From Naegleria gruberi (taxonomy: Eukaryota): a DNA stretch of 64,000 nt. The position numbers and the translations under genes were made by a program. The notes below the pieces were generated by a model. It saw only the letters and a list, made by a program, of their open reading frames with translations. It did no database searches and was not told where the DNA came from. Location: assembly GCA_000004985.1 (NCBI GenBank), contig GG738900.1. One strand, written 5' to 3'. This document shows, piece after piece, positions 4,682-21,500 of the stretch (position 1 is the first letter of the stretch; the number at the start of each line of letters is the position of its first letter).

Positions 4682-6427
4682 TTGGTAAACTGCTATTTAT
4701 ATGATAACCAACAACAACAACAATATAAGACTGTAGAATTTTTATTAACCGCAAAGATGCAGTTAAATCTTAACTATTTTGTGAGAGTGTTTATGCTCAA
4801 ACTGTGGTTTTTAATTTTCAATTATCCACTTTCTCTACTTACGGCCATCCTTTCCATGATGATAATTTATAGAGCTTCACAGAAGAAGAATTCGCCTCTT
4901 CCTCTCGATAAAAGATTACCTATTGAAGATAGTAGTAGTGGTACAACACTTGGATCATCAGGAATAGGTTCTCTTATATCTAATTCTGTTAATTCTGTTG
5001 CTGATGTAACAACAGTGACTTCTTCATCTAATAACAACAACAACAACAACTGGTCGGCCACAGTTGCTTCAATTTATAGTTCTTCATCTGATGATGAAAC
5101 GGAAAAACCAACATCAAGATTTACTAGTTTTATTAATTATTTCTGGGGAGGAGGAAAAACTCATCACAACGTTGATGACAATATCAGCACAACAAGTACA
5201 TCATCAGAAAATTCAACAATCTCCCCAGCTGATGGTAATCATATGTATTCCATGTTTGATAATGTTGATTCTAATGATCCAAACCAAAGTAATCTTTTAC
5301 GATGTCCTCCTAAATTATTAGAAGATCCAATGAAGTTGTTGGGAAGAACTGTCTTGATGGTAGGAGGTTGTTGTGAAGGTGTAGGATATGAAATTGCTTA
5401 TGCACTTGCACAGTTAGGTGCTAGAAAGGTTGTTTTAGCTTGTGCAAATGAACATGAAGCCCAAGAAGCAATCGAGAAAATGACAGATATTAGTCGAGGA
5501 GTTGTTGAATTTATGCATCTAGATTTATCTTCCATTCAAAGTATACGTCAATTTGTTAATTTCTATCAAAATGTTATGAATTATGAGTGCCACGTCCTAG
5601 TTAGTACTGTTCTTTGCACAAGACAGAGTAACATGGGAAAGAACACTTCTAATAATAACAGTAGTAGACAATTACAAAACCAATTTATTGGTCCTAGATT
5701 TACCAAAGATGGTTATGAAAAAAACTTCCAACTCAATTATTTGGGAAGAATTATTCTTATTGATATGATGTCGGATATGTTAAAGAGAAATCATACAAGG
5801 GTTGTTAATGTTGTGGAAATATTAAGTGAATCCCTTAAACAACAAAAACCTATGAAAATGATACCTAACTCTGATTTGAATGCTAGTACATTCAAGAAAG
5901 CATATACTGAACAAGACTATTTTAATTACTCTATGAGATGTAATTTATTATGGATTAAAATGTTTGCAAAGAAATATCAACAAGATGGTGTGACAATTTG
6001 TTGTTGCGACCCTGAACTTCCTGGAACCTACAAACCTCCAATTCCTGATATTATTAATCAACCTACCTCTACTTCCTCACTTCTTTCAGATCCATATTTT
6101 ATGGATCCAAACTCACATGATGTATTGTCAATCACTAATGAATACGCTGAAGAAATTACCAATTTTGATAAGATACAAAGTTTACTTTATGGGTCACTAT
6201 GTGATAAGCAATATTTTGAAAATGGTGCCTACATAACGAATTATAGAACTAAAAAACTTCCTTCCTCCTATTCGAATAAGAAAGATATGGAGCTGAATTG
6301 GGAACAAACAGCTTCACTCGTAACAGAGATACAGAGTTCTGTCATTTCTCAACACTCCTCTCCTTCAATCAGTGTTAATTCTTCTCCTACCCTTCCCATC
6401 CCTTCCTCCTCTCAGAACGAACCATAA
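4682..6427 (+). CDS. Short-chain dehydrogenase/reductase-like protein (retinol-dehydrogenase-like) with N-terminal hydrophobic anchor and Ser/Asn low-complexity inserts
   Basis: A Rossmann-like segment VLMVGGCCEGVGYEIAYALAQLGARKVVLA is followed by HLDLSSIQSIRQFV and Y..S...NLLW, as in RDH/WWOX-type SDRs. The glycine motif and YxxxK look degenerate. The likely start is the in-frame ATG at 4757. Poly-Gln and poly-Asn runs are present. Unrecognised introns are possible. Confidence 0.5.
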   Translation: MVNCYLYDNQQQQQYKTVEFLLTAKMQLNLNYFVRVFMLKLWFLIFNYPLSLLTAILSMMIIYRASQKKNSPLPLDKRLPIEDSSSGTTLGSSGIGSLISNSVNSVADVTTVTSSSNNNNNNNWSATVASIYSSSSDDETEKPTSRFTSFINYFWGGGKTHHNVDDNISTTSTSSENSTISPADGNHMYSMFDNVDSNDPNQSNLLRCPPKLLEDPMKLLGRTVLMVGGCCEGVGYEIAYALAQLGARKVVLACANEHEAQEAIEKMTDISRGVVEFMHLDLSSIQSIRQFVNFYQNVMNYECHVLVSTVLCTRQSNMGKNTSNNNSSRQLQNQFIGPRFTKDGYEKNFQLNYLGRIILIDMMSDMLKRNHTRVVNVVEILSESLKQQKPMKMIPNSDLNASTFKKAYTEQDYFNYSMRCNLLWIKMFAKKYQQDGVTICCCDPELPGTYKPPIPDIINQPTSTSSLLSDPYFMDPNSHDVLSITNEYAEEITNFDKIQSLLYGSLCDKQYFENGAYITNYRTKKLPSSYSNKKDMELNWEQTASLVTEIQSSVISQHSSPSISVNSSPTLPIPSSSQNEP

Positions 6428-6778
6428 AACCCAATTTTCAACAAGTGAAAGAATCAATTATTTTATTAATCATCATCTACAGTAATCAATTTTTCGAAGA
6501 AGAAACAATAGATTTGCGTTTTTTGTCTTGTTCATGGAAGTACAAGAATGTCCACTTTACAAAATTTCCTTCTTATTCAAATACGCACCATCAACAAGTT
6601 CATCAGAGGAAGATAACAAGGTAAACAACGTGTTAAAAATGTGTGGCTTCTCTGTGTTTACTTTCGCTGGCGTTGTCAAAATTGTTCTATAAATACATCC
6701 GTACAAAAAACACATGGTAAAAAAAATGTTCAAAACAACACCGTACCTATTAACAACAGCACACAACATCTCCCACCA

Positions 6779-7894
6779 ATGTCCTTCATTCACTACAATC
6801 CACTGGATGGAACTTCACCAAAGAAGAAGCAATTAACATTGGATGAACTGAAGTCCGTTCTTCACTTAAGCCAAGAGCAAGCTGCTAAAGTACTTGGTAC
6901 ATCTTCTTTCAAACTTCGCTCTTTATTCAAGAAGCATAGAGAGGAGCTTTCTATGGTTAGATGGCCAACACAAAAGGCTAGACAACAAATGCTAACCAAT
7001 AACAACAACAACAACAACATCATAGTGAAGGAAGAAGAAGAATTTCCTAGAGATGAAAATGACTTTCCAATCTTTAAAAAATCTCTCATATACAAGCAAC
7101 AAATCAAAAAGGGCAATAATCCATTCACTTCTATTGAACCTAAAATATTATATCTTCCTTCTCCACTTGAAAATAATCAACATAATGTTAACCATGAATC
7201 AATTTATTCCGGTTATACAGATGATGATAAGATTTTCACCTTTAACAAATATGAACTACAAGATTTCTTACATTTTTTGGAAATGAAAAGATTGGAAAAG
7301 GATATTTGTGATCGTATGATTGGTAGAGTAGCAAATGGATTCAAGAAAGTTGTATTCTGTATGCCAGTTTCAAAGTGTACCAGAAATGTATTTACCAGTT
7401 ACTTTGATATGTATGGAGAACATTGTACAATTAGAAGTAGAAAGGTTCTTGGATACGATTCTATTGGCTGTTTTACAAAAAGAAATGTTTCAAGATATGT
7501 GTTTGAATTTCCATATTTACCAACATTCGGAAATGGACGATGGACTTTGAATCAATATAGTTTAGATAATAATAATTATGAATCGGAATTTGAAGATGGG
7601 GAAGGAATAACAATATTCAACGATTCTACATCAACAACAAGTAGTACATCATCAAATGATTTCAGTTTTCCAGTTATCGAAGACAATGATTATTCATTTT
7701 TAGGAGAGGAGTTGAATGAGTTTAATGAACATTGCAATAGACAATTGGAATTCATGGAAGGATGGGATCATGTTCGAAACATGGTTTATAGATTAAGTGT
7801 TTCTCATAATTCAATCACTCAACTGGTTACAGTTTCATTCGGAATGATTTCTTTGAAGTTGTGGTATGATGGAACCTATAAAGAAACATTTTAA
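6779..7894 (+). CDS. RWP-RK domain-containing putative transcription factor
   Basis: The N-terminal segment LTLDELKSVLHLSQEQAAKVLGTSSFKLRSLFKKHREELSMVRWPTQKAR matches the RWP-RK consensus (L..L...F...AAK.LG...T.LK..CR..GI.RWP.RK). The ORF is open from 6641, but the first plausible Met that keeps the domain is at 6779. An Asn run follows. Confidence 0.65.
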   Translation: MSFIHYNPLDGTSPKKKQLTLDELKSVLHLSQEQAAKVLGTSSFKLRSLFKKHREELSMVRWPTQKARQQMLTNNNNNNNIIVKEEEEFPRDENDFPIFKKSLIYKQQIKKGNNPFTSIEPKILYLPSPLENNQHNVNHESIYSGYTDDDKIFTFNKYELQDFLHFLEMKRLEKDICDRMIGRVANGFKKVVFCMPVSKCTRNVFTSYFDMYGEHCTIRSRKVLGYDSIGCFTKRNVSRYVFEFPYLPTFGNGRWTLNQYSLDNNNYESEFEDGEGITIFNDSTSTTSSTSSNDFSFPVIEDNDYSFLGEELNEFNEHCNRQLEFMEGWDHVRNMVYRLSVSHNSITQLVTVSFGMISLKLWYDGTYKETF

Positions 7895-8002
7895 TAAAGT
7901 ATAACATTTAATCTATCACTTCTATACCATCATTATCACTTACATCAACAAGTTCAACAATAACATTAATCAACTTCAACTTCTGATTCACCTAACAAAG
8001 TA

Positions 8003-8051
8003 TTTTTTGACCCTGCAGTAAAAATAAAAAATTTATTGCAGGGTCAAAAAA
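8003..8051. repeat. Perfect 15-bp inverted repeat (TTTTTTGACCCTGCA / TGCAGGGTCAAAAAA) with 19-nt AT loop
   Basis: Read directly: arms 8003-8017 and 8037-8051 are exact reverse complements. Loop is gtaaaaataaaaaatttat. Confidence 0.9.
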
Positions 8052-8693
8052 ATGCTTAAACAACCCAAACGCAAAAAACAAAAACAGGACCATCAAAACA
8101 CAACTTCATCAATAACAACATCAACCCCAACAACATCAACAACAACAACAACAACTTCATCGATTAGAAAGTGTATTGTTAATTGTATCAATAATCAAAT
8201 ACACTTTTCTAAATCGGAAACACTAGTAACTTTATTAAAAGATTCAATGAATAAGAAGGAGTCATCAAATGAAATTTGTATTGTTTGTAAAAACGGAACA
8301 CCAGATAGTCATAAAGTTAGACCCTATGATCATTTTAAACCACATTCTAAAAAGATTATTAAATTATCAAATAATATTCCTATTAAATCTATTAATAATT
8401 ATGATGAGTTAATTAAAGAAATGATTAGTAATAATTTTGCTAAATTTAAGAATAATAATAATATTATTGAACAATATAATGATTATGTTAATACTAAATT
8501 ACAATTAAATGATGAAGAAAAAGAATTAATATTTACAAATAATTTTTTTAACAAATTTAATTTTAAACATGATAGGCTCGATACTTTAGATTATTTACAT
8601 AAAATTAATACACTACAACAAAAAATTAATACAGCTATTTGTCTTCAAATTCTTTTAAAGAATTTTGTTTCGAAGATAAAAAATTCTGAATAG
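8052..8693 (+). CDS. Hypothetical low-complexity (Thr/Asn-rich) protein; coding status uncertain
   Basis: A 213-aa ORF with a poly-Thr tract and Asn-rich composition. Its ATG directly abuts a 15-bp perfect inverted repeat. Its 3' end overlaps a Met-less ORF on the opposite strand. Confidence 0.3.
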   Translation: MLKQPKRKKQKQDHQNTTSSITTSTPTTSTTTTTTSSIRKCIVNCINNQIHFSKSETLVTLLKDSMNKKESSNEICIVCKNGTPDSHKVRPYDHFKPHSKKIIKLSNNIPIKSINNYDELIKEMISNNFAKFKNNNNIIEQYNDYVNTKLQLNDEEKELIFTNNFFNKFNFKHDRLDTLDYLHKINTLQQKINTAICLQILLKNFVSKIKNSE

Positions 8694-9134
8694 TTTCATG
8701 TAGAATTCCAATATCATCAAATAATAATACTTCATTTGTTTCATTAGAAGTTCTTTCTTTCAAATTTGGTAAAATAATATTATCCTTAAAAAAGTAAAAT
8801 ATTTTAAATCCAGTTATTACTAAATGAATATTAAATAATTGACGTTTAAAATCAGTAGTATCTGAATGTAAATGAGAGCCATTAGTTGAATCTGTAGATA
8901 TCCATAGATCAGTCCATTCAGTACATAATTTAGAATCTTTAATTAATGGTGAAATGGACTTGAATTATGTATTGTTGGACCTGGCCAAAGTATTGTGTTT
9001 AAAGAACATGTTCCTCATGGAACCTTTAATTGGGGTCCTATTACAATAAGTTTTGGACAAACTTATTTTGGAAATGAAATTGAAAAATTGATTTTCAATA
9101 AGAATCCAAATGATATTTCTTTATTGATTCAGGA

Positions 9135-9746
9135 ATGTGCAATTTAAGTAATTATTTGTGGAGAAGTGATGATGATAAGCAAGTTTCAATTATAGAAAGA
9201 ACTCCTATGAAAAGTTCTAAAGTTAATGAGTCATTTATTATTGATTGCAGCCCGCCAACAACAGTTCTTCTTAACAAACCAAGTACCACTACCATAATTC
9301 CAACCAGTGACGAAACTTTGGTAAATAGATCTCCATCAACCAAAAGAAAAGTAGATGCAATTAATGTGAAGGAATTATCAAAGAAAGCTGTTAAAGCTAT
9401 CAAGACAGATAATGAACAAAACGATTATACTATGTCAGAAACTTCATTACTTTTACAAGAATTAACAGATATTCTTTCAGATAGAGAAGAAAGAGATGCT
9501 TTAAAAAGAAAAGTTGAGCTAGAAGAAGGTTTTTATGAGTATTGTATGCAATTTTATCAAAAGATTATTACAGAAAATAAGAAAAAGATGGAATTGTTAG
9601 AAAATCAATTCGGTGAAATAGAGGCATTATCTATTGAAGTATCTTCCTATATCACTAAAAGACGAGAGAAACTAGAAATACAAGATAAAATAGAACACGC
9701 TGCTATCAAAGAAGAATTGAAAAAGCTTTTTGCAGAAGAAAAATAA
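9135..9746 (+). CDS. Hypothetical coiled-coil protein
   Basis: 203-aa ORF. The C-terminal half is strongly helical and charged (ALKRKVELEEGFYEY..KKMELLENQFGEIEAL). No family recognised. Confidence 0.45.
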   Translation: MCNLSNYLWRSDDDKQVSIIERTPMKSSKVNESFIIDCSPPTTVLLNKPSTTTIIPTSDETLVNRSPSTKRKVDAINVKELSKKAVKAIKTDNEQNDYTMSETSLLLQELTDILSDREERDALKRKVELEEGFYEYCMQFYQKIITENKKKMELLENQFGEIEALSIEVSSYITKRREKLEIQDKIEHAAIKEELKKLFAEEK

Positions 9747-9760
9747 ACTATTTTCATGAC

Positions 9761-9890
9761 TTTACATTTATTTACATTTATTTACGTTTATTTACATTTA
9801 TTTACGTTTATTTATATCAAATAATTACAAATAGTAATGTCTTTTTAAGTTTATTTACGTTTATTGAAATATTAACGTTTATTTATATAT
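9761..9890. repeat. Minisatellite: 10-bp unit TTTACRTTTA in about 6 tandem copies plus degenerate copies
   Basis: Read directly: tttacattta tttacattta tttacgttta tttacattta tttacgttta ttta.. at 9761-9816. Further gtttatttacgttta-like copies run to about 9890. It sits just 3' of the stop codon at 9746. Confidence 0.8.
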
Positions 9891-10036
9891 ATTACTATTT
9901 GTTGAATAAATTAACAGTATTTATTATTAATAAAACCTAGTTTAATGTTTAATCATAATGAAGCAAACAATTTGTATTAAATAATAATCATTTGATACAT
10001 AATAATACATAATCTTCCGGCATGGAATAATAGGTG

Positions 10037-10067
10037 CCTGCAGTATTTATTTTTAAAATACTGCAGG
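10037..10067. repeat. 12-bp inverted repeat (CCTGCAGTATTT / AAATACTGCAGG) with 7-nt loop
   Basis: Read directly. It shares the CCTGCAGTA core with the hairpin at 8003-8051. It lies about 70 bp upstream of the ATG at 10137. Confidence 0.85.
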
Positions 10068-10136
10068 TATTAATTATCAGCCGAGTTTTTTTGCACAGCC
10101 ATCGCTGGGAGGTTTTTACCACCCTCTCATTTTAAC

Positions 10137-10916
10137 ATGTCAAACACCACAGAATCAGACAAACTTCACAATGATGAAGCAGTGTGCGTCTCGTCATCCG
10201 ATGAAGAAGAATTTATCAGCAAGGATAAGCAAAAAGGTCACAAGGGAGTATTTATTGAAATCGGAGAACGTATGAAAAGATATGAAGCCAATCAAGGATT
10301 ATTCTTGGATGAAACCAAGCCGTATATGGCCAGATTGGATGGTCATAAATTCTCAACATTTGCTCGTCCATTTAGGTATGTAATGATATGAATTGATTGT
10401 ATTAAATTAATTCTTGATATTCAGAAAGCCATATGATAACTTGTTGCATGCAGTCATGGTTCAAACAGCTGCTGATCTGTGGAACAATTTAATGATGNNN
10501 NNNNNNNNNNNNNNNNNNNNNNNNNNNNNNNNNNNNNNNNNNNNNNNATTTGGGCAGCATTCTATTCTACCAAGGAAATGCATGGATTGAAAGCTCGTCA
10601 AGTTGTTGAGAAATTGAAAGAGGATAAGAATGTTGATTGGAATGATTATCCAATGGGTTATCGTTACGGAACTTTTATTAAAAAGTCAAAATACGAAAAG
10701 AATGTCAAGAATCCAAAAACAGGTGAAGAATTGGTGTGTATGAGAACTAAATCAGAAGCATTTTCATTCAAATTGGAAGATTTCGATTCAAAATATATTG
10801 AATTGTTTAATCTCAAGACATGGAATGAAGTTTTTGAAAAGGGAATTTTGAATAGAGATGATTTAATTCTTGAGCCATTGTTTAGTGATTTGTTGGCTTC
10901 AGATAACAAAGAATAA
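10137..10916 (+). CDS. tRNA-His guanylyltransferase (Thg1/Thg1-like family); exons ~10137-10375, 10425-10497, gap, 10548-10916
   Basis: The segment YEANQGLFLDETKPYMARLDGHKFSTFARPF(R)KPYDNLLHAVMVQTAADLWNNL matches the Thg1 N-terminal core (RLDG..F..F, KP.D, M...A). One 49-nt GTATGT..CAG intron lies at 10376-10424. The CDS is interrupted by a 50-N assembly gap, so the downstream frame is inferred from the ORF. Confidence 0.6.
10498..10547. other. Assembly gap (50 N)
   Basis: Run of n characters in the sequence. Confidence 1.
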
Positions 10917-10964
10917 AGTTTCGAATAAATCTCCTTTTCAATATTAAAAAAATAGATCTGAAAA

Positions 10965-11909
10965 ATGGCTCAATTGACCGAAGAAGATTCACAAGTAATT
11001 GTTAATTTAATTAATTTTGATCACTCCCCCAATTCATTGTTTGATCAATTAAAAATTCAACTACGAAATTATAAGAAATTTGTACCATTTTCCATGAATT
11101 TTGAAGAGGTTGCGAAAATAACACCAATTTCCAATTTAATGTGTCATGTTAAAGTCTCACCATCACATCATTGTCTATGTGTGTCTGATACAGAAGACAA
11201 CATAAAGAAAATTAAGTTTTTTGAATTGACAAGCTTGCGATATTTAACAAGTTTTAAACATCTTACACCTGTTGACAGTTTGTTTATCGAGGAAAACTTT
11301 GATGGCCAACACAATGATGCAATTTATTTTGGAGAATTTGGGGGCATGACAAAGTACAGAGTTAAAGACTTGTTGATTTTGGGAGAAAATGCACAGTTTT
11401 TATGGAAAATTGAAAAGAAATACAGGTTTGGAATGGCAATAAGAGAAATTGGAAATAAGAAACAATTATTCAGATTTGCTGGCGTTTCCAGAACAATGGA
11501 TATAATAGATGCTGAGGAGGGTAAAATTATTGCTGAGATGGATTTTGAACATATTCACAAGGTGTTTGGAATTGAATTTATTACTCCAAAGCGATTGTTT
11601 ATATCATGTCTGGATGGAGATTGTTGTATATTTGATGAAGAAACAGAAAACAAATGGAAACTCTTTAAAATTATTCAAAGTGTGGATGATATTCGCCTTA
11701 AAGACTCTGCTGGATTAACAGTTGACTATTTGGGTAAAAAGATATTCCTCTCCAATACTGGAAGAATTATAATCTTTGATTTTGATGGAGATGTAGTTGG
11801 CTCATACAAGGCAGATATTAAAGTTCCTTGTGGTCTTGATTTTGACAAGAGAACTGGCCTTCTTTATGTTGCTGATCAATTATCCAATTCCATTAAAATT
11901 TTCAAGTAA
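10965..11909 (+). CDS. Hypothetical beta-propeller (NHL/YVTN-like repeat) protein
   Basis: 314-aa ORF with repeated beta-strand-rich units ending in ..LLYVADQLSNSIKIFK (NHL-like). Family uncertain. Confidence 0.45.
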   Translation: MAQLTEEDSQVIVNLINFDHSPNSLFDQLKIQLRNYKKFVPFSMNFEEVAKITPISNLMCHVKVSPSHHCLCVSDTEDNIKKIKFFELTSLRYLTSFKHLTPVDSLFIEENFDGQHNDAIYFGEFGGMTKYRVKDLLILGENAQFLWKIEKKYRFGMAIREIGNKKQLFRFAGVSRTMDIIDAEEGKIIAEMDFEHIHKVFGIEFITPKRLFISCLDGDCCIFDEETENKWKLFKIIQSVDDIRLKDSAGLTVDYLGKKIFLSNTGRIIIFDFDGDVVGSYKADIKVPCGLDFDKRTGLLYVADQLSNSIKIFK

Positions 11910-12739
11910 AGTTACAAATATTTACATTTGACTTGATTTCTTTTCACACTTTGTAGTTGTGTGAAATGAAGAATATAACGATTGGTTAATCAAGTAGTGT
12001 GATATTTGTAACATTTCAATTGTTAATTTTGGACGGGAAGCCTGCCAGGAATATGGCGACAATCCCGCTACAGTCTTTGACTGTATGAACAGTGAAGGCA
12101 AGAGTTCTGGACGAATCTTGTTGTGTTTAAATAACAGGTTGTTGAGGAAATTCAATAGGTTGATCAACCTTGTATTTATTGAACATTGATTCGCTGAATT
12201 GCTTGATGCAAATTTTGGTTTCATATTTTCTGATCAAATCTAAACTAAATTGAAACTTCAGCTTATTGGATTTCATCAGCAAATTATTACAAGAAATCAA
12301 TTTTTTCACAAGATCTTTAAATATTAAAAAAATATCTCATCATTTATAATAACATTCGAATGGTTGAAATTTTTTTTACCATTTCTCATTACCTTATTTG
12401 TAAATTAATGAAATTTGTGCAATGATGCATATGAAAATGATGATTAAAATTAAATATTATCCAATTGGAATAGCTAGTGGTTTTCCAATAATTCCAAAAT
12501 CAATAAGTGAAATCTCAACTATTTAAATCTACAAGGTGTTTCTCTAAATTCATTAGATAATTTCATCTCAACGATTTATTTAATTTCAATAGAGAAACAC
12601 CATATCTTGTTTATTTAGCCCATTGCCAAACATCACATTTCAAACCATCAAAATCTCTCATTAAAAAAAATTGGAGACATTTGCCTGCCATCCATCATCA
12701 TTTTGATCACACAAAAACAAGAAGAAGAAGAATAAAATC

Positions 12740-15700
12740 GTGCATCAAAACATCAAAATGGCACCTCCATCATCATCCACCAATACAATCCATGAAAAAT
12801 TTGATTTTTATTCCCTCGTTTCACCACAAGGACAAATCAAAACTATTTGTTCAGTAATTGATGATTATGATTTTATATTTGTTGGTTTGGGGGATGGTCG
12901 TGTAGTTATCTATCGAATGAAAATTGATAATTTCTCAGCCATTGAAGCAGAGAAATGTGTTTCCATCAATATTGACAAGGCACCGATTGAAGATATTCAA
13001 GTTGACTCTAAAAACAAGTTACTTTTTGTATTGAATGAACAACATGATTGATATTTTGGTTATGATCCGAAACATCCAACAGGAATTTCTTGAGAGAAAG
13101 GCAGAAATTTTGGGTAAACAAATTTCATGTTTTGCTGTGGATAAGAGATGTGAAAATCAGAGATTGGTTTTGAGTTATAAAAGTGGAAAGTTAAAAGGAA
13201 AGGCATCACTGTTTTCATATAAGGAATTGTTGGAAGATAGTGTTCAAGAGTTGACTGAAATTAAAACAGTTGATATGGAAGATTCAAATCAATTTACGAC
13301 AACTCATGAAATGTTATTTGTTGATTCTTACTTTGTTTGTTTACTTTCAAAAGGTGCAAAATCAAAAGAAGTCATGTATTATAAGAGATTTAGTTTGAAT
13401 ATTTCACAAACTACGAGAAATTTCATTTCCTGTCAATCAATTGTTACAAAAGAAAGTGATATGGATGAAATTCGAGGAACAAAGGGTGTTTATATTAAGA
13501 ATAGTATGATTCATTTAGAAGGAAAGGTAGCTCTCTTTAGATGTGGATTGAAATTGTGGAGACCTTGCTATTTGGATGGTGAAAAGTATTATGTGAGAAA
13601 TGCCTCCTCAAATATTGTTTCAAGTGTTGCAGGAAATGCTAACAATACTACTGATTCTTCTTCATCACTTTCCAGTAATATTCAAAGTTCAAATTCTGAA
13701 GAACAATCAGAAATTGAAGAAGTCAACTATGAAAGAACCAACACTTTACAATCCATGAAGGAAGAATTTAAATATGCCTATGTTAACACAAATGGTGCTG
13801 AACCTTTGAGTGTTTGTTTGTGTTTCCCATATGTTGCTTGTTTGATGAGTGACAGTCTCGATATTTACAATTTATATTGGAGAGAAAGTACAACTACCAA
13901 GTCAACTATGCAAGCAAAGAAAGTTTATTCATTATTGAACAATAAGGATGGTACCACTATATTTGCAGATGAACATCGTTTCTATGTGGTTACTGAAAAT
14001 TCAAATGCCATTCGTTACTTGTCTCCTCCAAATAGTGATATTCAATTAAAGACATTGAGAGAAGAGTTGCTCTCACCACAAGCTCATCACTTGTTCAAAA
14101 TGAGACAAGACAAAAATAGTGAAGATTTCAGAAAGGAATTGATGGAATTCCAATTTGCAAATGGTAAAGCGAACTTGGAAAGAGGTAGGCCGAAGGAAGC
14201 TTTCAGATTCTTCTTAGAATCAATGAAGCAATCAAAGTATTTATCCATTGAAGATAGAAAGGATATTCGTGAGATTTTGAGATATTTCATGTATTATAGC
14301 GGTTCTTCTCATTCTCAATTTAGTTTGATTTCACCAAGTTTCTTCCCGTCTTCAATTTCAAGTGAACCAATTCGTGAAAAATTGACTACAAACTTTAAAC
14401 AAGGGAAAATCAAAGCTGGTATCGATCAGAACTTTATCACTCAAGATATGGCTATGAACTTTACAGAGCACTTTATCAACTTGCTCATTCACAAGACTTT
14501 CATGTACTTGATGGAATTCCTTGAAGTGGTTCAATCAAATCCAAAATATAGACCTGAAACTTTGGATCAACAAGCTGCAGTTGAATATGCCTTGTTAGCT
14601 CTCTACACATTACCTCATCCAAACATGGCTTCAAAGGAATTTGATGAAAACAATAGAAGATCCCTTGCCTACTATCATCATTCTTGCTATGAGAACATTG
14701 AAAAGATTGTAAAGAGAAAGCACGAACCTGGTTTTGAAAAGTATACTGAACAATTGTTCAAAGTCTTGACAGATACTGGTTGTTGGAGACACGCTGCCTT
14801 GTTAGCTCATAATCTTGGGCAAAGTACTCAACAAGTTATGGGTATTTTCAAGAGTAACATTAGTCGTGACATTTACTATGAACGTTACGATGGTGTGGAT
14901 GATGTTGTTGATATTTTAAGTCAGATGGATGGTAATACATTATTGCAAAATCCATCCATTAGAGAATTCATTTCATGGATCATTTCACTCAATCCAAGCA
15001 AGAGTGTCAAGATTTTCACCGCCCCAAGAGCTAATCCACCAATCCCAGATTTGGTATTGGAATTCTTGAATCCATTCCCTCTCAACATGACAGTTCAATA
15101 TTTGCATCACATAATCTATGAAACAAAGGGTCAAGGTATTACAGATAGAGATTTGAATAGATATCATACAGAATATGCAATAAGTTTGATTGATTATGTA
15201 ACCTTGATTTATCCTGTCAATCTCGATAAGAGACTTGCCCCTCCAGCAGGTACTGAACAGGGAGATCTCGGTAAATTTAGAGGATACTTGTTGAAACACA
15301 TCAAGGAAAGTAGCAGATACAATAAGGAAATTGTCGACAAGAAACTTCAAACATCCAATTTGAATGAGGAAAAGATTTCACTCTTCCATGTTATGGGAAA
15401 ACACGAGGAGGCATTAACTGTCCTTGTAAAAACTGATTTGAAGAGAGCTGAGGAGTATTGTGATACTGTCTTTGAGGAAGAACAAAAATCTACAGTTTTA
15501 CTTTCAAAGAGTGGAAATCAAGCAAGTAATTACAATCCATATTTAATCAGATTGATTGAAATTACAACCAATCCAACACTTTTTGATGAATATGATGAAG
15601 AGAGTGCTCTCCGTAGAATGATGAGTGTTCTCAGTTTACTTCAAAGAAGAGCTTCGGATATTAACATTATTGAAGTATTGTCCGTACTTCCAGAACATTC

Positions 15701-16040
15701 TGAATTGAGGCAATTATCAACCTTCTTAACTCAGGCCATTCAATTTACTCATCACAATAATAGAACTACTTTAATTAAGAATGAATTGGCAAGAAATGCC
15801 TCAATGCAAGTTAAGGCACGTCATGTCAAAGCTACAACCAGATCAATAACTGTTACTTCAACTACATCATGTCCAGTTTGTGAACAACCTATTGGTAATG
15901 CTGTCTTTGCAATCTTCCCTGACCAATCAGTTGTCCATTATCGTTGTTTGATTAGCAACGAAGATGAAAAGAAGGAAAAGAATAGGAATGTCCATCCAAA
16001 GAATGGTATTGATTTTAAGAAATTCCCAGTTGACTTTTAA
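12740..16040 (+). CDS. Vps39/Vam6 - Vps3/TGFBRAP1 family vacuolar tethering protein; exons 12740-13027 and 13083-16040 (55-nt intron)
   Basis: The N-terminus is a CNH-like beta-propeller start (KTICSVIDDYDFIFVGLGDGRVVIYRM). A long helical middle follows. The C-terminus is CPVCEQPIG..(16)..HYRC, the zinc finger typical of the Vps39_2/TRAP1 C-terminus. The two ORFs differ in frame and are joined by a GTATTG..ACAG intron. Confidence 0.62.
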
Positions 16041-16146
16041 ATCTTTACCCGTAACAAATAAATCAATTAAACAATTCGTTCACTCTTAATATCATTAATT
16101 TTTAGCCATTTCCAAATCCTTTTAGTCGGTTGGCAAAGAAAACAAA

Positions 16147-16235
16147 AGGCGACTGAGGGAATTGAACCCTCGACCCTCAGTTATCTCAGCATTACTGCCT
16201 ACAAGACTGATGCACTGCCACTGTGCTAAGCCGCC
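16147..16235 (-). tRNA. Intron-containing tRNA gene, anticodon most likely UGU (Thr), with downstream T-run Pol III terminator
   Basis: The minus-strand sequence is GGCGGCT-TA-GCAC-AGTGGCA-GTGC-A-TCAGT-CTTGTA-[17-nt intron]-A-ACTGA-GGGTC-GAGGG-TTCAATT-CCCTC-AGTCGCC. It has a 7-bp acceptor stem with one G-U pair, a D-arm with GG, and a T-loop TTCAATT. The intron sits at the canonical 37/38 position. A run CTTTTGTTTTCTTT lies immediately 3'. Confidence 0.8.
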
Positions 16236-16353
16236 TTACATGCATCAAAAAAATTATAAAAACCTGTGCTAAAGCAACACATGTCAAACTTTCTTCAAAA
16301 ATTTTCCACTTGAAGTTCAATTAGACATTAGACTTGAAAAAAAAGGCTTTACA

Positions 16354-18532: not shown

Positions 18533-21500
18533 ATGACCAAAGACACGATAAAGGTAGACTTTCGTCTTCACCAGTCCGGTAATGTAAGTGTTCATCATCG
18601 CTACTACAGTTCATCAACGATTCTACAACAATAATTTTCCTTTCTCCATCATCATCAACAAACAACAATAACGAAATACGAAACTAATTTTTATTCGAAA
18701 CAGCTGATTGAAGGTTTTTTAAAAAAGAAGGGTAAAAACTTAATCAATCGAGCACCACTTCGTTACGTAATTGTACGAAAGGATGGTCTTTATTATTTTG
18801 ATGTAAAGAAGGATGAAAAGAATGGTCAAGATCAACCCGATCTTGATACTTGTCTTGGATTTATAAATATTCTTGATTTACAATCAGTGGTTGGAGATGA
18901 ATCTGATAACAAATTAACAATAACAGCAGAAAAGAAAAAGAAAACTAAACAATTTGTATTTTTCACTGAAAATAAGGATTCGTATACAAATTGGTTCAAT
19001 GAAGTAAAGAAATGGGAATCACAAAAAGATTTATATGTAAAATCATCACCTCAAACCAATCAATCAACATTTTCAAGTGGTGCTTCATCAAGAAATTCTG
19101 CAAAATCAGCAACCAATGAATTAACTTCCATCTCACAAAGAGTTCGATCATCTTCGAGTAGACTTTCATTGAACAAACCTATTGATACAGGTGGTCTATT
19201 TTCACAGAGTCCACCTAATAGTGGTGGTGGTGGTGCATTGAGTGGTGGTGTTGCAAGTGGTGGTACTGGAGACAGTTCAGCAACTACTCCATCAACTCCT
19301 TCCACAATTATTTCTGGAAGTTCTGCTACCCCAATTATTAATCCATCCACTACAAATGTTACTGCAGGTACGAGTCCAACTGGTATTGGATCTATTCTCA
19401 ATAGGAAAAAGACAACTTTTGAAGATGAAGATATTGGAACGGAGGCAAATATTTCTGATGAAGAAGATGAATTGGAAAATGACGAAGATGATGATAATAT
19501 GAGTGGTCTCAGTGCAAGAAGTAGAAGTTCAACAAGATCAAGAAGAAGTGGAGTTTTGAAAGGAAAAGAAAAAGGAAATTTGTTTGACTTGTTAAATTCT
19601 CAAAAATTGGCCGAATCAAGTGTTGCTAGAAGACACTCTGTCATGTTTGATAAGGTTTCTGATAGATCTTCAGTTATTTTCGATGATGGATCATCACACA
19701 GTGGTGCTGGAAATCGTAAGAACGATGAAGATCAATTTGATAAGAGAAGATTCCAAAATATCATGTCAATCTTCCCAATTGAAAGAGAACATTCTCGTTA
19801 TTTTGATGATGGTAAACGTGTTGAATTGACTCAACCAATAGCAGAAGTCAAAGAATGGGAAGAAGAATTAATCAGCTTTGAAACTAAACGTTCTCAAAAA
19901 TCAGAAAAAGTTGATGAAAAATCCATCACTACTCTCGTTCCTCATGATTTTGCAGATGCTAAGGAAAAGTGTAAGGAAACTCTTCAACAAGAGGACAAAT
20001 TCTGTTACTGGGCTCACGAAGTTGTGTGGTTCAATCCAAGAGTAGTCGGTAATAAGAATCAATACAAGGAAGCACTTCTCGTGTTGGGTAACAGAAATTT
20101 GTACATTATTGACTCGAAGAGTTTCAAAACTGAAACAAAGGTCAGAGTGAATGATATTGTTCACATTGTTCAATCTGGTTATGAGGATGACATTGTTGGT
20201 ATTGTAAGAAAGAAGGACAGAGAGGAAATGTACGATATTCTATTCCAATTCACAGAAACTAAAAAAACAAGAGGTGCCGATGAGACATCCATTACTGTTC
20301 AAGATGAAGAGAGAATTAGAGGGAAATCATTTGCTAACAGTTGTTCTGCTCTCTTTAAGGAACAAGAAAATGAAATCTACTTGAAAAAGATTGAATTCTT
20401 TGATTATATTTCAGCAATTTTCCTTTCACAAAGAGGTTTGCAACTTAAAATCTTCTTTGTCAATGATGTAAGACAAGCAGTTAGAACAACTGAAAAGGAA
20501 GATCCAATTGACTTGAATGAAAAGAATATTCTCGAATCAACATCCATTCTCCAAATCGATAAGAAGCATGATTTTATCAAACTCTATTTGGAACCAATTA
20601 GATGTAGAGTTATGAGTGAATTTGGTGATAAACAAGTGCTATTTGCTGGTCTCCTTGGTAAGAAGAATAAGAGAAACAAGTATCAAAATCGTACCATTGT
20701 CATTACTAATAGAGCTCTCTACGTCTTTGATCCAAAGAAGCAAAAATCATTCAAGAGAAGAATTAAACTCTCTGAAATCTCAAGAGTTTACAGAAATAAG
20801 AAGAAGGGTGTATTGATTGATGTTCCTAGTGAATATCCACTTTGTTTGGTTCCAAAGCAAAATATGGACGTTTTTGAAGATTTTATAACTGTTCTCTCTA
20901 CTTTGTATTTTGATAAGGATTTAGTTCAACATGTAAAGGATAATGAATTTGATTCATTTGACTTGGAAAAGTCTCAAGGTTTCAAGGAAAAGATGAACGA
21001 AACTGAAGATATTTTACAAGTCCACAATCAGCTCAGAACAGCCATTAGTTCTAAAGATGTTAACCAAGTTAGAGAATATTTGGCCTACGCTGATGCATTG
21101 GTTGGTAAGAGAGATCCTCAAGAAACTATGAGTATTAGAGATTTGAGAATTCAAGCTAGTGAATTCTTAGCTGATGTTCGTTTACAAGAATTCATCAAGG
21201 AAAAACTTCAAACTGCTTTCATTAACAGAGATTTCCTTGAAATGAGTAGAATGTTGGATCACATTGAAACTATCAAGAAGGAAAGAGGTGAGGAAGAAAT
21301 CTACAAAGTACTTGCTGACTATCTCAAGAGTATCAAAACTGAAAAGGAAGTTGTCATTAACAAACACTTACTCATGACAAGAATCGAATATTTACTTGCT
21401 GGAGGTGTTGATACAGATAATGAGAGAAGAATTCTCGAAGCTGTTGATATAGCCAAGAGAGCTGGTTTCGTAAAGGAAGTTGAAAAGTACAAACAAGAGT

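What the first reader, a model, noticed from the sequence alone, without database searches (positions are those of the whole stretch)
8003..10067. Two hairpin palindromes sharing a CCTGCAGTA core, each just upstream of a plus-strand start codon
The first is a 15-bp perfect inverted repeat at 8003-8051 (TTTTTTGACCCTGCA..TGCAGGGTCAAAAAA, 19-nt loop) ending one base before the ATG at 8052. The second is a 12-bp perfect inverted repeat at 10037-10067 (CCTGCAGTATTT..AAATACTGCAGG, 7-nt loop) about 70 bp before the ATG at 10137. Both carry the same CCTGCAGTA / TACTGCAGG ends around an AT loop. Perfect palindromes of this length are not expected by chance in 64 kb. Shared ends suggest a family of small palindromic elements (a MITE-like footprint or a protein-binding site) rather than two independent hairpins.
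Basis: seen in the sequence. Interest (0 to 1): 0.55.

Follow-up and report, generated by a model that had tools for sequence, protein, structure and literature searches.

The report
Two related palindromes in Naegleria repeat
Two 31-base palindromes with the same half-sites and spacing sit 2 kb apart in a young, duplicated stretch of the Naegleria gruberi genome; they are related rather than chance hairpins, most plausibly docking sites for a paired DNA-binding protein, but no wider family could be shown.

Summary
The window is Naegleria gruberi nuclear DNA.

Stem length alone is only mildly unusual: shuffles give 0.47 hairpins of 12 bp or more per window. The unusual part is the shared unit CCTGCAGTA-13 A/T-TAYTGCAGG at 8012-8042 and 10037-10067. 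Half-sites match at 17 of 18 positions and the spacing is identical, but spacer sequence and flanks are unrelated. Shuffles expect 0.00 such sites.

No third copy turned up in the window, in about 81 kb from other Naegleria and related contigs, or in IMG/VR and JGI metagenomes. Prokaryote genomes gave chance-level hits only. The N. gruberi assembly itself could not be retrieved, so the genome-wide test is still open.

Both units lie in DNA that splits a gene pair adjacent in three other Naegleria. That DNA is not found on two contigs of a 99%-identical strain, and its two annotated genes have 99%-identical paralogues elsewhere in the assembly. There are no target-site duplications and no match to a known RNA or transposon family.

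Best reading, at low confidence: two-part recognition sites for a dimeric protein, belonging to this repeat block. RNA hairpin, palindromic mobile-element and chance readings remain open. Modest interest.

The parts
8012..8042 (.). Unit 1, the 31-bp core: CCTGCAGTA + AAAATAAAAAATT + TATTGCAGG
7998..8058 (+). Full extent of hairpin 1. It has 15-bp perfect arms and 20-nt arms with one G/T mismatch. As + strand RNA it forms a 25-bp stem at -30.8 kcal/mol, which includes the ATG at 8052.
10037..10067 (.). Unit 2, the 31-bp core: CCTGCAGTA + TTTATTTTTAAAA + TACTGCAGG. The arms are 12 bp and perfect.
10027..10077 (+). Full extent of hairpin 2. The arms are 22 nt at 82% complementarity. As + strand RNA it forms a 16-bp stem with three G.U pairs plus an outer 5-bp helix, at -25.7 kcal/mol.
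6779..7894 (+). RWP-RK-like gene (NAEGRDRAFT_59275, EFC39325, 371 aa). Its stop codon lies 109 nt before hairpin 1. It has 99%-identical paralogues EFC47857, EFC35929 and EFC35445.
8052..8693 (+). Unannotated 213-codon ORF whose ATG abuts hairpin 1. Its codon usage looks coding and it has no Pfam match.
8637..8960 (-). N-terminal part of a cupin/JmjC-like domain, without a start codon. It is inverted relative to the C-terminal part.
   Evidence: Cupin_8 E=0.0026, weak
8961..9147 (+). C-terminal part of the cupin-like domain (dead-gene debris).
   Evidence: Cupin_2 E=0.014, weak
9135..9746 (+). Orphan gene (NAEGRDRAFT_52432, EFC39326, 203 aa). Its stop codon lies 291 nt before hairpin 2. Near-identical paralogues are EFC47856 and EFC35285, and there are no homologues outside N. 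gruberi.
9761..9814 (.). 10-bp tandem repeat (TTTACATTTA, 5.4 copies) in the very AT-rich stretch that ends at hairpin 2.
10137..10916 (+). Thg1-like gene with an apparent intron after 10366. It is interrupted by a 50-N assembly gap at 10498-10547. Its ATG lies 69 nt after hairpin 2.
6604..11013 (.). Stretch with no counterpart on the two contigs of a 99%-identical environmental strain. L059 diverges from the window after 6603, and L004 matches only from about 11013-11019 rightwards. Both hairpins lie inside this stretch.

Best explanation
The two hairpins are two copies of one 31-bp bipartite palindromic site, CCTGCAGTA-13 A/T-TAYTGCAGG. They belong to a young, lineage-specific, low-copy repeat block of the N. 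gruberi genome.

The conservation pattern is this: half-sites kept, spacer length and A/T-only composition kept, spacer sequence and flanks free. It is the pattern expected of a DNA site read by a dimeric sequence-specific protein. The two half-sites lie 22 bp centre to centre, about two helical turns, across an easily bent or melted A/T spacer.

I infer that the sites act on duplex DNA as cis-elements of this block. They would be either promoter or operator-type sites for the + strand ORFs just downstream (ORF 8052 and the Thg1-like gene), or binding sites used in the block's own maintenance or movement. A candidate binder is the RWP-RK-like helix-turn-helix protein encoded 109 nt upstream, which is duplicated together with the block.

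Shown: the relatedness of the two sites, their uniqueness in all accessible sequence, and the repeat and strain-specific context. Inferred: protein binding, the identity of the binder, and the biological role.
For: - Only two sites in the window match the unit with up to 3 mismatches, against 0.00 expected. The half-site 9-mer occurs 4 times against 0.12 expected.
- The half-sites are identical at 17 of 18 positions and both units are 31 bp with all-A/T spacers. The 200-bp flanks on either side show no similarity between the two sites.
- It is not a general gene-boundary signal. Of 28 perfect hairpins of 9 bp or more in a window of about 35 genes, only these two are long and G+C-containing.
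- The DNA around them is lineage-specific. The neighbouring adh_short (short-chain dehydrogenase) and Vps39 genes are adjacent in N. lovaniensis, N. fowleri and a third Naegleria species, but 6.6 kb apart here.
- Contigs of a 99%-identical strain lose homology at 6603 and regain it at about 11013.
- The RWP-RK gene and ORF 9135 each have 99-100%-identical paralogues, with consecutive accession numbers on a 695-kb scaffold and further copies on small contigs. The flanking adh_short and ORF 10965 genes are single-copy at 90% identity.
- The protein encoded next to hairpin 1 has a confidently modelled RWP-RK-type helical DNA-binding domain (Pfam 28.4 bits; pLDDT about 75-87). It belongs to a conserved family.
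- Plant RWP-RK factors bind semi-palindromic bipartite sites as dimers (PMC13170786).
Against: - There is no direct evidence of protein binding.
- With only two copies, 'conservation' rests on a single comparison.
- No further half-site or unit lies near any other gene in the window.
- Loci of 40%-identical RWP-RK homologues (L060-L062) have no comparable palindrome downstream.
- Each site is also a longer palindrome than a 9+13+9 binding site needs. All five transition-type stem imperfections are G.T on the + strand. Both points suit an RNA or single-strand hairpin role at least as well.
- The Pfam RWP-RK hit is just below the gathering score (28.4 against 29.3).
- The C-terminal domain has no recognisable fold.
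Confidence: 0.35

Rival explanations
1. The hairpins act as RNA structures in + strand transcripts. They would serve as 3'-end, termination or processing signals for the two annotated genes of the block (RWP-RK and ORF 9135). Alternatively they would act as 5'-UTR hairpins that sequester the ORF 8052 start codon, or as Dicer-type substrates.
For: - The folds are very stable on the + strand: -30.8 and -25.7 kcal/mol, z -9.8 and -5.9. They are weaker on the - strand, at -23.8 and -21.0.
- All five transition-type imperfections are G.U-compatible on the + strand only. A coin-flip chance of this is about 1 in 32.
- All neighbouring genes are on the + strand.
- Each annotated gene of the block is followed by one hairpin, 109 and 291 nt after its stop codon.
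- The ATG at 8052 is inside the base of stem 1.
Against: - A purely structural signal does not explain why the same 9-mer half-sites and the same spacing are kept while the rest differs.
- Both upstream genes have AATAAA overlapping their stop codon, so mRNA ends are expected well before the hairpins.
- The other roughly 35 genes of the window have no such hairpin.
- Rfam gives only sub-threshold generic miRNA-precursor matches, at most 28 bits against gathering scores of 54-97.
- The strand bias can also come from C-to-T changes on the non-template strand.
Confidence: 0.22
2. The hairpins are small palindromic mobile-element copies or transposon termini (MITE- or foldback-like). They would have been inserted into, or carried by, a mobile block.
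For: - The two copies are related and sit in AT-rich intergenic DNA.
- The surrounding DNA behaves like mobile or duplicated DNA. It is strain- and species-specific, present in several 99%-identical copies, low in G+C, and contains dead cupin fragments and a tandem repeat.
- Other small palindromes nearby also differ between strains: 12535-12601 in the window and L004 3316-3983.
Against: - There is no target-site duplication at either copy.
- The conserved part is internal, while hairpin 1's outer arms are private to it.
- The flanks show no similarity between copies.
- There is no third copy in the 64-kb window or in about 81 kb of other Naegleria and related contigs.
- No transposase, recombinase or Rep domain was found in the tested ORFs between 4682 and 16040, and the RWP-RK protein model has no nuclease-like fold.
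- Hairpin 1 is internal to the duplicated block, not at its edge.
- Helitron and hAT end signatures were tested and are absent.
Confidence: 0.2
3. The two palindromes have no function. They arose independently, for example by template switching in AT-rich DNA, and the shared core is coincidence or a small local duplication.
For: - Hairpins of 12 bp or more are expected 0.47 times per window, and a stem of 15 bp or more appeared in 2 of 60 shuffles.
- The window has more short hairpins than shuffles do, 28 against 16.
- No conservation in other species could be shown.
Against: - The joint pattern has an expectation of 0.00 in 100 shuffles, even with 3 mismatches allowed.
- In 596 Gb of prokaryote genomes the exact N13 pattern occurs only 14 times, and never with an all-A/T spacer.
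- A neutral duplication would not keep 17 of 18 half-site bases and the exact spacer length while the spacer sequence changed at about 9 of 13 positions.
Confidence: 0.15
4. The hairpins are an assembly or cloning artefact near a gap of the draft assembly.
For: A 50-N gap lies 430 bp to the right of hairpin 2. The region also contains an odd inverted cupin fragment.
Against: - The loops and flanks have the local AT-rich genomic composition.
- The two hairpins differ from each other outside the core.
- No vector or adaptor sequence is evident.
- The hairpins lie inside contiguous sequence, flanked by intact ORFs that match NCBI protein models exactly.
Confidence: 0.03

Closest known systems
Bipartite semi-palindromic binding sites of RWP-RK factors (plant NLP/NIN nitrate-responsive element, TG(A/G)C(C/T)CTT-N10-AA(G/A)(A/G)GGCA; PMC13170786)
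   Same: - Both are two inverted half-sites of 8-9 bp separated by a fixed spacer and read by a dimer.
- An RWP-RK-like gene lies 109 nt upstream of hairpin 1.
- Hairpin 1's outer arms read TGACCCTG...CAGGGTCA, which matches the NRE half-site at 7 of 8 positions.
   Different: - The spacing is N23 for that outer motif, and N13 for the shared core, not N10.
- Hairpin 2 lacks TGAC/GTCA, so the NRE-like motif is not the shared part.
- TGACCCT occurs 7 times in the window, so the match is probably coincidence.
- No binding was tested.
Site-specific recombination sites (loxP, FRT, dif; integron attC)
   Same: Both are short inverted half-sites around an A/T-rich spacer. Here two such sites bracket a 2-kb segment of a duplicated, strain-specific block.
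   Different: - The spacer is 13 bp, not 6-8 bp.
- No recombinase gene was found.
- Hairpin 1 is internal to the duplicated block.
- Each site is an integral palindrome with its own outer arms, not a hybrid of two parental sites.
MITEs and foldback elements
   Same: They are short palindromic repeated sequences in AT-rich intergenic DNA, within a region that varies between strains.
   Different: - There is no target-site duplication.
- Only two copies are seen.
- The conserved part is internal rather than terminal.
- At 31-61 bp the units are far below usual MITE sizes.
Gene-end hairpins (the Mimiviridae 'hairpin rule', recalled from my own knowledge; intrinsic terminators)
   Same: They are stable AT-rich hairpins between genes on the same strand, with better pairing on the coding strand.
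   Different: - Only 2 of about 35 genes have one.
- Here the hairpin sequence is shared between copies, which as far as I recall is not a feature of the viral hairpins.
- No viral relatives of the block's proteins were found in IMG/VR.

Membership tests
MITE / small palindromic transposable element | Target-site duplication flanking each copy | tested here: not met
   Flanks were read directly. Unit 1 has ...TTTTTTGAC|unit|GTCAAAAAA..., a palindromic flank and not a direct repeat. Unit 2 has ...TAGGTG|unit|TATTAA.... Only a 4-bp AACA with a 1-nt offset is found around the extended hairpin 1.
MITE / small palindromic transposable element | Many dispersed copies in the host genome | not testable with these tools
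   The N. gruberi assembly could not be retrieved. In what was accessible there are only 2 copies in the 64-kb window. There are none in about 81 kb of other Naegleria and related contigs and none in IMG/VR or JGI metagenomes.
MITE / small palindromic transposable element | Terminal inverted repeats conserved at the element ends | tested here: inconclusive
   The shared 9-mers are inverted repeats. In hairpin 1, however, they are internal to 20-25-bp arms whose outer part is not shared with hairpin 2.
Helitron 3' end | Hairpin followed within about 10-12 nt by CTRR; 5' TC end; insertion between A and T | tested here: not met
   No CTRR follows either hairpin. At the left homology break (6603/6604) the tail of the related strain's contig is not found anywhere downstream in the window.
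hAT-type transposon (tested on the block, not the hairpins) | Matching terminal inverted repeat plus 8-bp target-site duplication | tested here: not met
   The sequence at 6604 starts CAGAGG, which resembles a hAT end. No inverted copy of it and no second AAGTTCAT occurs in 6000-14000.
RWP-RK (NLP/NIN) nitrate-responsive element | Half-sites TG(A/G)C(C/T)CTT and AA(G/A)(A/G)GGCA separated by 10 bp | tested here: not met
   Hairpin 1 has TGACCCTG-N23-CAGGGTCA, so the half-site matches at 7 of 8 but the spacing is wrong. Hairpin 2 has no such half-site.
Tyrosine/serine recombinase core site | Recombinase gene in cis; 6-8-bp crossover spacer | tested here: not met
   The spacer is 13 bp. No recombinase or integrase domain was found in the tested ORFs between 4682 and 16040.
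Known RNA families (Rfam 15), including miRNA precursors | Score at or above the family's gathering threshold | tested here: not met
   No gathering-level hit in the window apart from one tRNA. The best sub-threshold hit is 28.3 bits against a gathering score of 90.
Gene-end hairpin system (hairpin rule / terminators) | A hairpin after most genes of the genome or element | tested here: not met
   Only these two long hairpins occur in a window with about 35 genes.
Bipartite palindromic protein-binding site (generic class) | Conserved inverted half-sites, fixed spacing, unconstrained spacer sequence | tested here: met
   The half-sites match at 17 of 18 positions. Both spacers are 13 nt and all A/T, but only 4-5 of 13 positions are identical. 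The flanks are unrelated. This rests on two copies only.
Bipartite palindromic protein-binding site (generic class) | Demonstrated binding by a protein | not testable with these tools
   This needs EMSA, DAP-seq or ChIP.

The most novel reading that the evidence does not exclude
The 31-bp palindromes are the recognition sites of a self-contained mobile or copy-number-variable module of Heterolobosea. In this reading an RWP-RK-type DNA-binding protein travels together with its own palindromic sites, which mark the junctions between gene-sized cassettes (RWP-RK | site | ORF 8052-ORF 9135 | site | Thg1-like). That would be a eukaryotic arrangement reminiscent of integron cassettes or of plasmid partition and resolution sites, and has not been described for Naegleria.
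Probability: 0.07. Interest if true: 0.75.

Novelty: new member of a known kind. Interest (0 to 1): 0.3.

Why it matters
Almost nothing is known about cis-regulatory or repeat-associated DNA signals in Naegleria, or in Heterolobosea generally. A sequence-defined, fixed-spacing palindrome tied to a recently duplicated, strain-specific block would be a concrete handle.

It could be used to find the protein that reads it; the adjacent RWP-RK-like factor is a testable candidate. It could also help trace how such blocks spread between chromosomes and strains, and might supply a promoter or operator element for the still-poor genetic toolbox of Naegleria.

If it proves to be confined to this one block, it is a local curiosity.

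Tried and rejected
1. Retrieving the N. gruberi assembly or the paralogous copies. Exact-protein look-ups of Vps39, P0001, P0006 and P0007 all returned 'not on record', so the paralogous hairpin positions could not be read.
2. A chimeric 983-aa query, meant to test in one search whether ORF 8052 and the Thg1-like gene are also duplicated. It returned nothing, probably because low-complexity words swamped the candidate list. That search was wasted.
3. Pattern scans of public collections.
   - IMG/VR gave 51 hits, mostly in phage coding sequence, none with an A/T spacer.
   - JGI metagenomes gave 0 hits for the exact unit and 2 irrelevant hits for a relaxed one.
   - Prokaryote genomes gave 14 chance-level hits.
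4. Viral origin of the block. No relatives of P0012 or P0006 were found in IMG/VR.
5. Transposon-end models. hAT (CAGAGG end plus 8-bp duplication), Helitron (TC...hairpin...CTRR), Mutator (9-bp duplication of CCTGCAGTA with terminal repeats inside) and Tc1 (TA duplication) all fail on the sequence.
6. Hybrid attL/attR-type sites. Rejected because each palindrome is internally complementary right into its private outer arms.
7. The NRE (RWP-RK binding site) resemblance. The spacing is wrong, it is absent from hairpin 2, and the 7-mer is common in the window.
8. Conservation downstream of distant RWP-RK homologues. There is no palindrome in L060-L062, and the closest homologue's contig had no DNA available.
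9. The fold of the RWP-RK protein's C-terminal domain. The AlphaFold model built with 15 sequences has moderate confidence in the core. Foldseek against the PDB found nothing at E of 0.001 or below, and the AlphaFold database library (afdb50) was unavailable.
10. Literature. No paper was found on Naegleria palindromic repeats or MITEs. Papers containing both 9-mers were, judging by titles and abstracts, unrelated to any such element; none was opened.
Full report
**Source and setting**

The window is nuclear DNA of the amoeboflagellate Naegleria gruberi. The 1001-codon ORF at 13035-16040 is 100% identical to the N. gruberi Vps39 protein and 79-82% identical to those of N. fowleri, N. lovaniensis and an environmental Naegleria. 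G+C is about 33%, dropping to 15-25% in 8300-8800 and 9700-10000. There are short spliceosomal-type introns and one 50-N assembly gap at 10498-10547.

**The observation**

Both hairpins are exactly as described.

- Hairpin 1 has 15-bp perfect arms at 8003-8017 and 8037-8051. With one G/T mismatch the arms extend to 20 nt with a 9-nt loop. As + strand RNA it forms a 25-bp stem over 7998-8058, which includes the ATG at 8052.
- Hairpin 2 has 12-bp perfect arms at 10037-10048 and 10056-10067 with a 7-nt loop, and imperfect extensions to 10027-10077.
- They are the two longest perfect hairpins in the window; the next best are 10 bp.

Stem length alone is not strong evidence. In 60 dinucleotide-preserving shuffles, hairpins of 12 bp or more occurred 0.47 times per window, and a stem of 15 bp or more appeared in 2 of 60 shuffles.

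The strong signal is the relatedness of the two.

- Each contains a 31-bp unit, CCTGCAGTA-13 nt-TAYTGCAGG, at 8012-8042 and 10037-10067.
- The 18 half-site positions differ at one base: T8036, where hairpin 2 has C.
- The spacers are the same length and purely A/T, but only 4-5 of 13 positions agree in either orientation.
- The 200-bp flanks show no similarity.
- The 9-mer occurs 4 times against 0.12 expected. The fourth copy, at 19360, is a lone half-site inside a long ORF.
- The bipartite pattern with up to 3 mismatches hits only these two places, against 0.00 expected.

**Search for further copies**

- None in the rest of the window.
- None in about 81 kb of other Naegleria and related contigs. 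These are loci L001-L005 and L059 (N. lovaniensis, N. fowleri, two environmental Naegleria) and L060-L062 (environmental contigs carrying distant RWP-RK homologues).
- IMG/VR gave 51 hits for the loose pattern. Most were in phage coding sequence and none had an A/T spacer.
- JGI metagenomes gave no hit for the exact unit, and two unrelated AT-rich hits for a relaxed one.
- 596 Gb of prokaryote genomes gave 14 hits, about the chance expectation, none with an all-A/T spacer.

The decisive search, the N. gruberi genome itself, could not be run. No N. gruberi contig is retrievable with these tools.

**Context**

All genes around the hairpins are on the + strand:

| Feature | Coordinates | Notes |
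|---|---|---|
| Short-chain dehydrogenase (adh_short) | 4757-6427 | single-copy at 90% identity |
| RWP-RK-like gene, NAEGRDRAFT_59275 | 6779-7894 | 99%-identical paralogues |
| Hairpin 1 | 7998-8058 | 109 nt after the RWP-RK stop |
| ORF 8052 | 8052-8693 | unannotated, 213 codons, coding-like codon usage |
| Cupin/JmjC-like fragments | 8637-8960 (-) and 8961-9147 (+) | opposite strands; Pfam hits are weak |
| Orphan gene NAEGRDRAFT_52432 | 9135-9746 | near-identical paralogues |
| 10-bp tandem repeat | 9761-9814 | |
| Hairpin 2 | 10027-10077 | 291 nt after the ORF 9135 stop |
| Thg1-like gene | 10137-10916 | Pfam 43.9 bits; PDB 4kgk |
| ORF 10965 | 10965-11909 | single-copy at 90% identity |
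| Vps39 | 13035-16040 | |

An in-place inversion of about 320 bp would restore the order of the two cupin fragments, so this looks like a dead gene with an internal inversion.

Three findings show that this DNA is young and variable.

1. In N. lovaniensis, N. fowleri and a third Naegleria species the dehydrogenase and Vps39 genes are direct neighbours, about 120-340 bp apart. In N. gruberi 6.6 kb lies between them.
2. Two contigs from an environmental strain are 98.6-99% identical to the window in the dehydrogenase and Vps39 regions. L059 loses homology after 6603, and L004 matches only from about 11013 rightwards. Both hairpins lie in the stretch between.
3. The two annotated genes of that stretch have 99-100%-identical paralogues.
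   - ORF 9135 (EFC39326) matches EFC47856, which differs by 1 residue in 203, and the fragment EFC35285.
   - The RWP-RK gene (EFC39325) matches EFC47857, EFC35929 and EFC35445.
   - EFC47856 and EFC47857 are both reported with a longest contig of 695,587 bp and have consecutive accession numbers. I infer that the block is duplicated as a unit.
   - The flanking dehydrogenase and ORF 10965 have no such paralogues at 90% identity.

It follows that hairpin 1 is internal to the duplicated block. The right edge of the block lies somewhere in 9746-10965. Hairpin 2 sits exactly where G+C jumps from 15-25% to about 40%, so it may be near that edge.

ORF 9135 has no homologue outside N. gruberi. The RWP-RK-like protein belongs to a small conserved family seen only in environmental contigs. 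It has a confidently modelled N-terminal helical DNA-binding domain and a C-terminal domain of unrecognised fold.

**What the hairpins are not**

- *Not a general gene-boundary signal.* No other gene of the window has one.
- *Not a known RNA family*.
- *Not a recognisable transposon end.* There are no target-site duplications, and no Helitron, hAT, Mutator or Tc1 end signatures. No transposase, recombinase or Rep domain was found in the tested ORFs.
- *Not hybrid attL/attR-type sites.* Each palindrome is self-complementary into outer arms that the other copy lacks.
- *Not viral.* No relatives of the block's proteins were found in IMG/VR.
- *Unlikely to be an assembly artefact.* They lie in contiguous sequence between ORFs that match GenBank protein models residue for residue.

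**Most likely mechanism**

The pattern is: half-sites kept, spacer length and A/T-only composition kept, spacer sequence and flanks free. That is what a bipartite site read by a dimeric sequence-specific protein looks like. The half-sites are 22 bp centre to centre, about two helical turns. A neutral duplication would not erase about 9 of 13 spacer positions while preserving 17 of 18 half-site positions and the exact length.

I therefore favour, at about 0.35, a DNA-level recognition site that is a cis-element of this repeat block. It could be a promoter or operator element: both sites lie just upstream of + strand ORFs, centred about 25 and 85 nt before the ATGs. Or it could be a site used in the block's maintenance or spread.

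The RWP-RK-like protein encoded 109 nt upstream, and co-duplicated with the sites, is an obvious but untested candidate binder. Plant RWP-RK factors bind semi-palindromic bipartite sites as dimers (PMC13170786).

The resemblance of hairpin 1's outer arms (TGACCCTG...CAGGGTCA) to the plant half-site TGACCCTT is probably coincidence. The spacing is 23 rather than 10, hairpin 2 lacks the motif, and the 7-mer occurs 7 times in the window.

**Rivals**

- *An RNA role (0.22).* This has real support. The + strand folds are more stable than the - strand folds: -30.8 and -25.7 against -23.8 and -21.0 kcal/mol. All five transition-type imperfections are G.U-compatible on the + strand only. However, structure alone does not explain the shared sequence. 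Both upstream genes also carry AATAAA at their stop codons, well before the hairpins.
- *A palindromic mobile element (0.20).* This fits the neighbourhood but fails the target-site-duplication test, and there is no third copy anywhere accessible.
- *Coincidence (0.15) and artefact (0.03).* Both are disfavoured by the statistics and the sequence context.

**Novelty and value**

No described family fits, and the searchable literature holds nothing on such elements in Naegleria. The object is nonetheless a member of a familiar class, the short bipartite palindromic cis-element. With two copies and no functional data, its interest is modest.

The most novel reading still open is a self-contained module in which an RWP-RK-type protein and its palindromic sites move together and mark cassette junctions. 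I put this at about 7%.

The genome-wide pattern search, and an alignment with the paralogous block on the 695-kb scaffold, would settle most of this within minutes once the N. gruberi assembly is at hand.

Noticed in passing
window 6428-13034 (compare L001 9704-10001, L002 9664-10001, L005 4415-4532): The short-chain dehydrogenase and Vps39 genes are direct neighbours in three other Naegleria species. In N. gruberi they are separated by 6.6 kb carrying RWP-RK-like, orphan, Thg1-like and beta-propeller-like genes.
   Followed up: partly
window 8637-8960 (-) and 8961-9147 (+): Two halves of a cupin/JmjC-like domain lie on opposite strands, back to back. An in-place inversion of about 320 bp would restore their order, which suggests a dead gene with an internal inversion. 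The Pfam hits are weak (E = 0.0026 and 0.014).
   Followed up: partly
window 12535-12601 (within 12436-12605); L004 5360-5480: A 67-bp palindromic element has 12-bp perfect ends (GGTGTTTCTCTA / TAGAGAAACACC). It lies in a 170-bp stretch that is replaced by 121 unrelated bases in an otherwise 93-99%-identical environmental strain.
   Followed up: partly
L004 3316-3983: A stretch of about 660 bp is bounded by the inverted 12-mers TAGATCGCGGGA / TCCCGCGATCTA. It ends exactly where homology to the window (about 11013) begins, so it may be a transposon insertion, or an assembly join, in the environmental strain.
   Followed up: no
window 10498-10547: A 50-N assembly gap lies inside the coding region of the Thg1-like gene, so that gene model is incomplete in this assembly.
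   Followed up: yes
window 9761-9814 and 9844-9888: A 10-bp tandem repeat (TTTACATTTA, 5.4 copies), with a degenerate second block, lies directly after the stop codon of ORF 9135. This is the most AT-rich part of the region, at 15-18% G+C.
   Followed up: partly
window 7854-7872 and 8090-8108: An inverted 19-mer (17 of 19 complementary) straddles hairpin 1 asymmetrically. Both arms lie in coding sequence, one in the end of the RWP-RK gene and one in the start of ORF 8052. It is probably chance.
   Followed up: no
window 6779-7894; proteins P0017-P0034: The RWP-RK-like protein defines a small family with a conserved central and C-terminal domain of unrecognised fold. Outside N. gruberi the family was seen only in environmental contigs, and no PDB structure matches the model.
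   Followed up: partly
window 16146-16236 (-): A tRNA-Thr(TGT) gene of 91 nt, a length that suggests it contains an intron, lies just downstream of Vps39.
   Followed up: no
window 7892-7898 and 9742-9747: Both annotated genes of the repeat block have an AATAAA hexamer overlapping their TAA stop codon. That suggests very short 3' UTRs ending before the hairpins.
   Followed up: no
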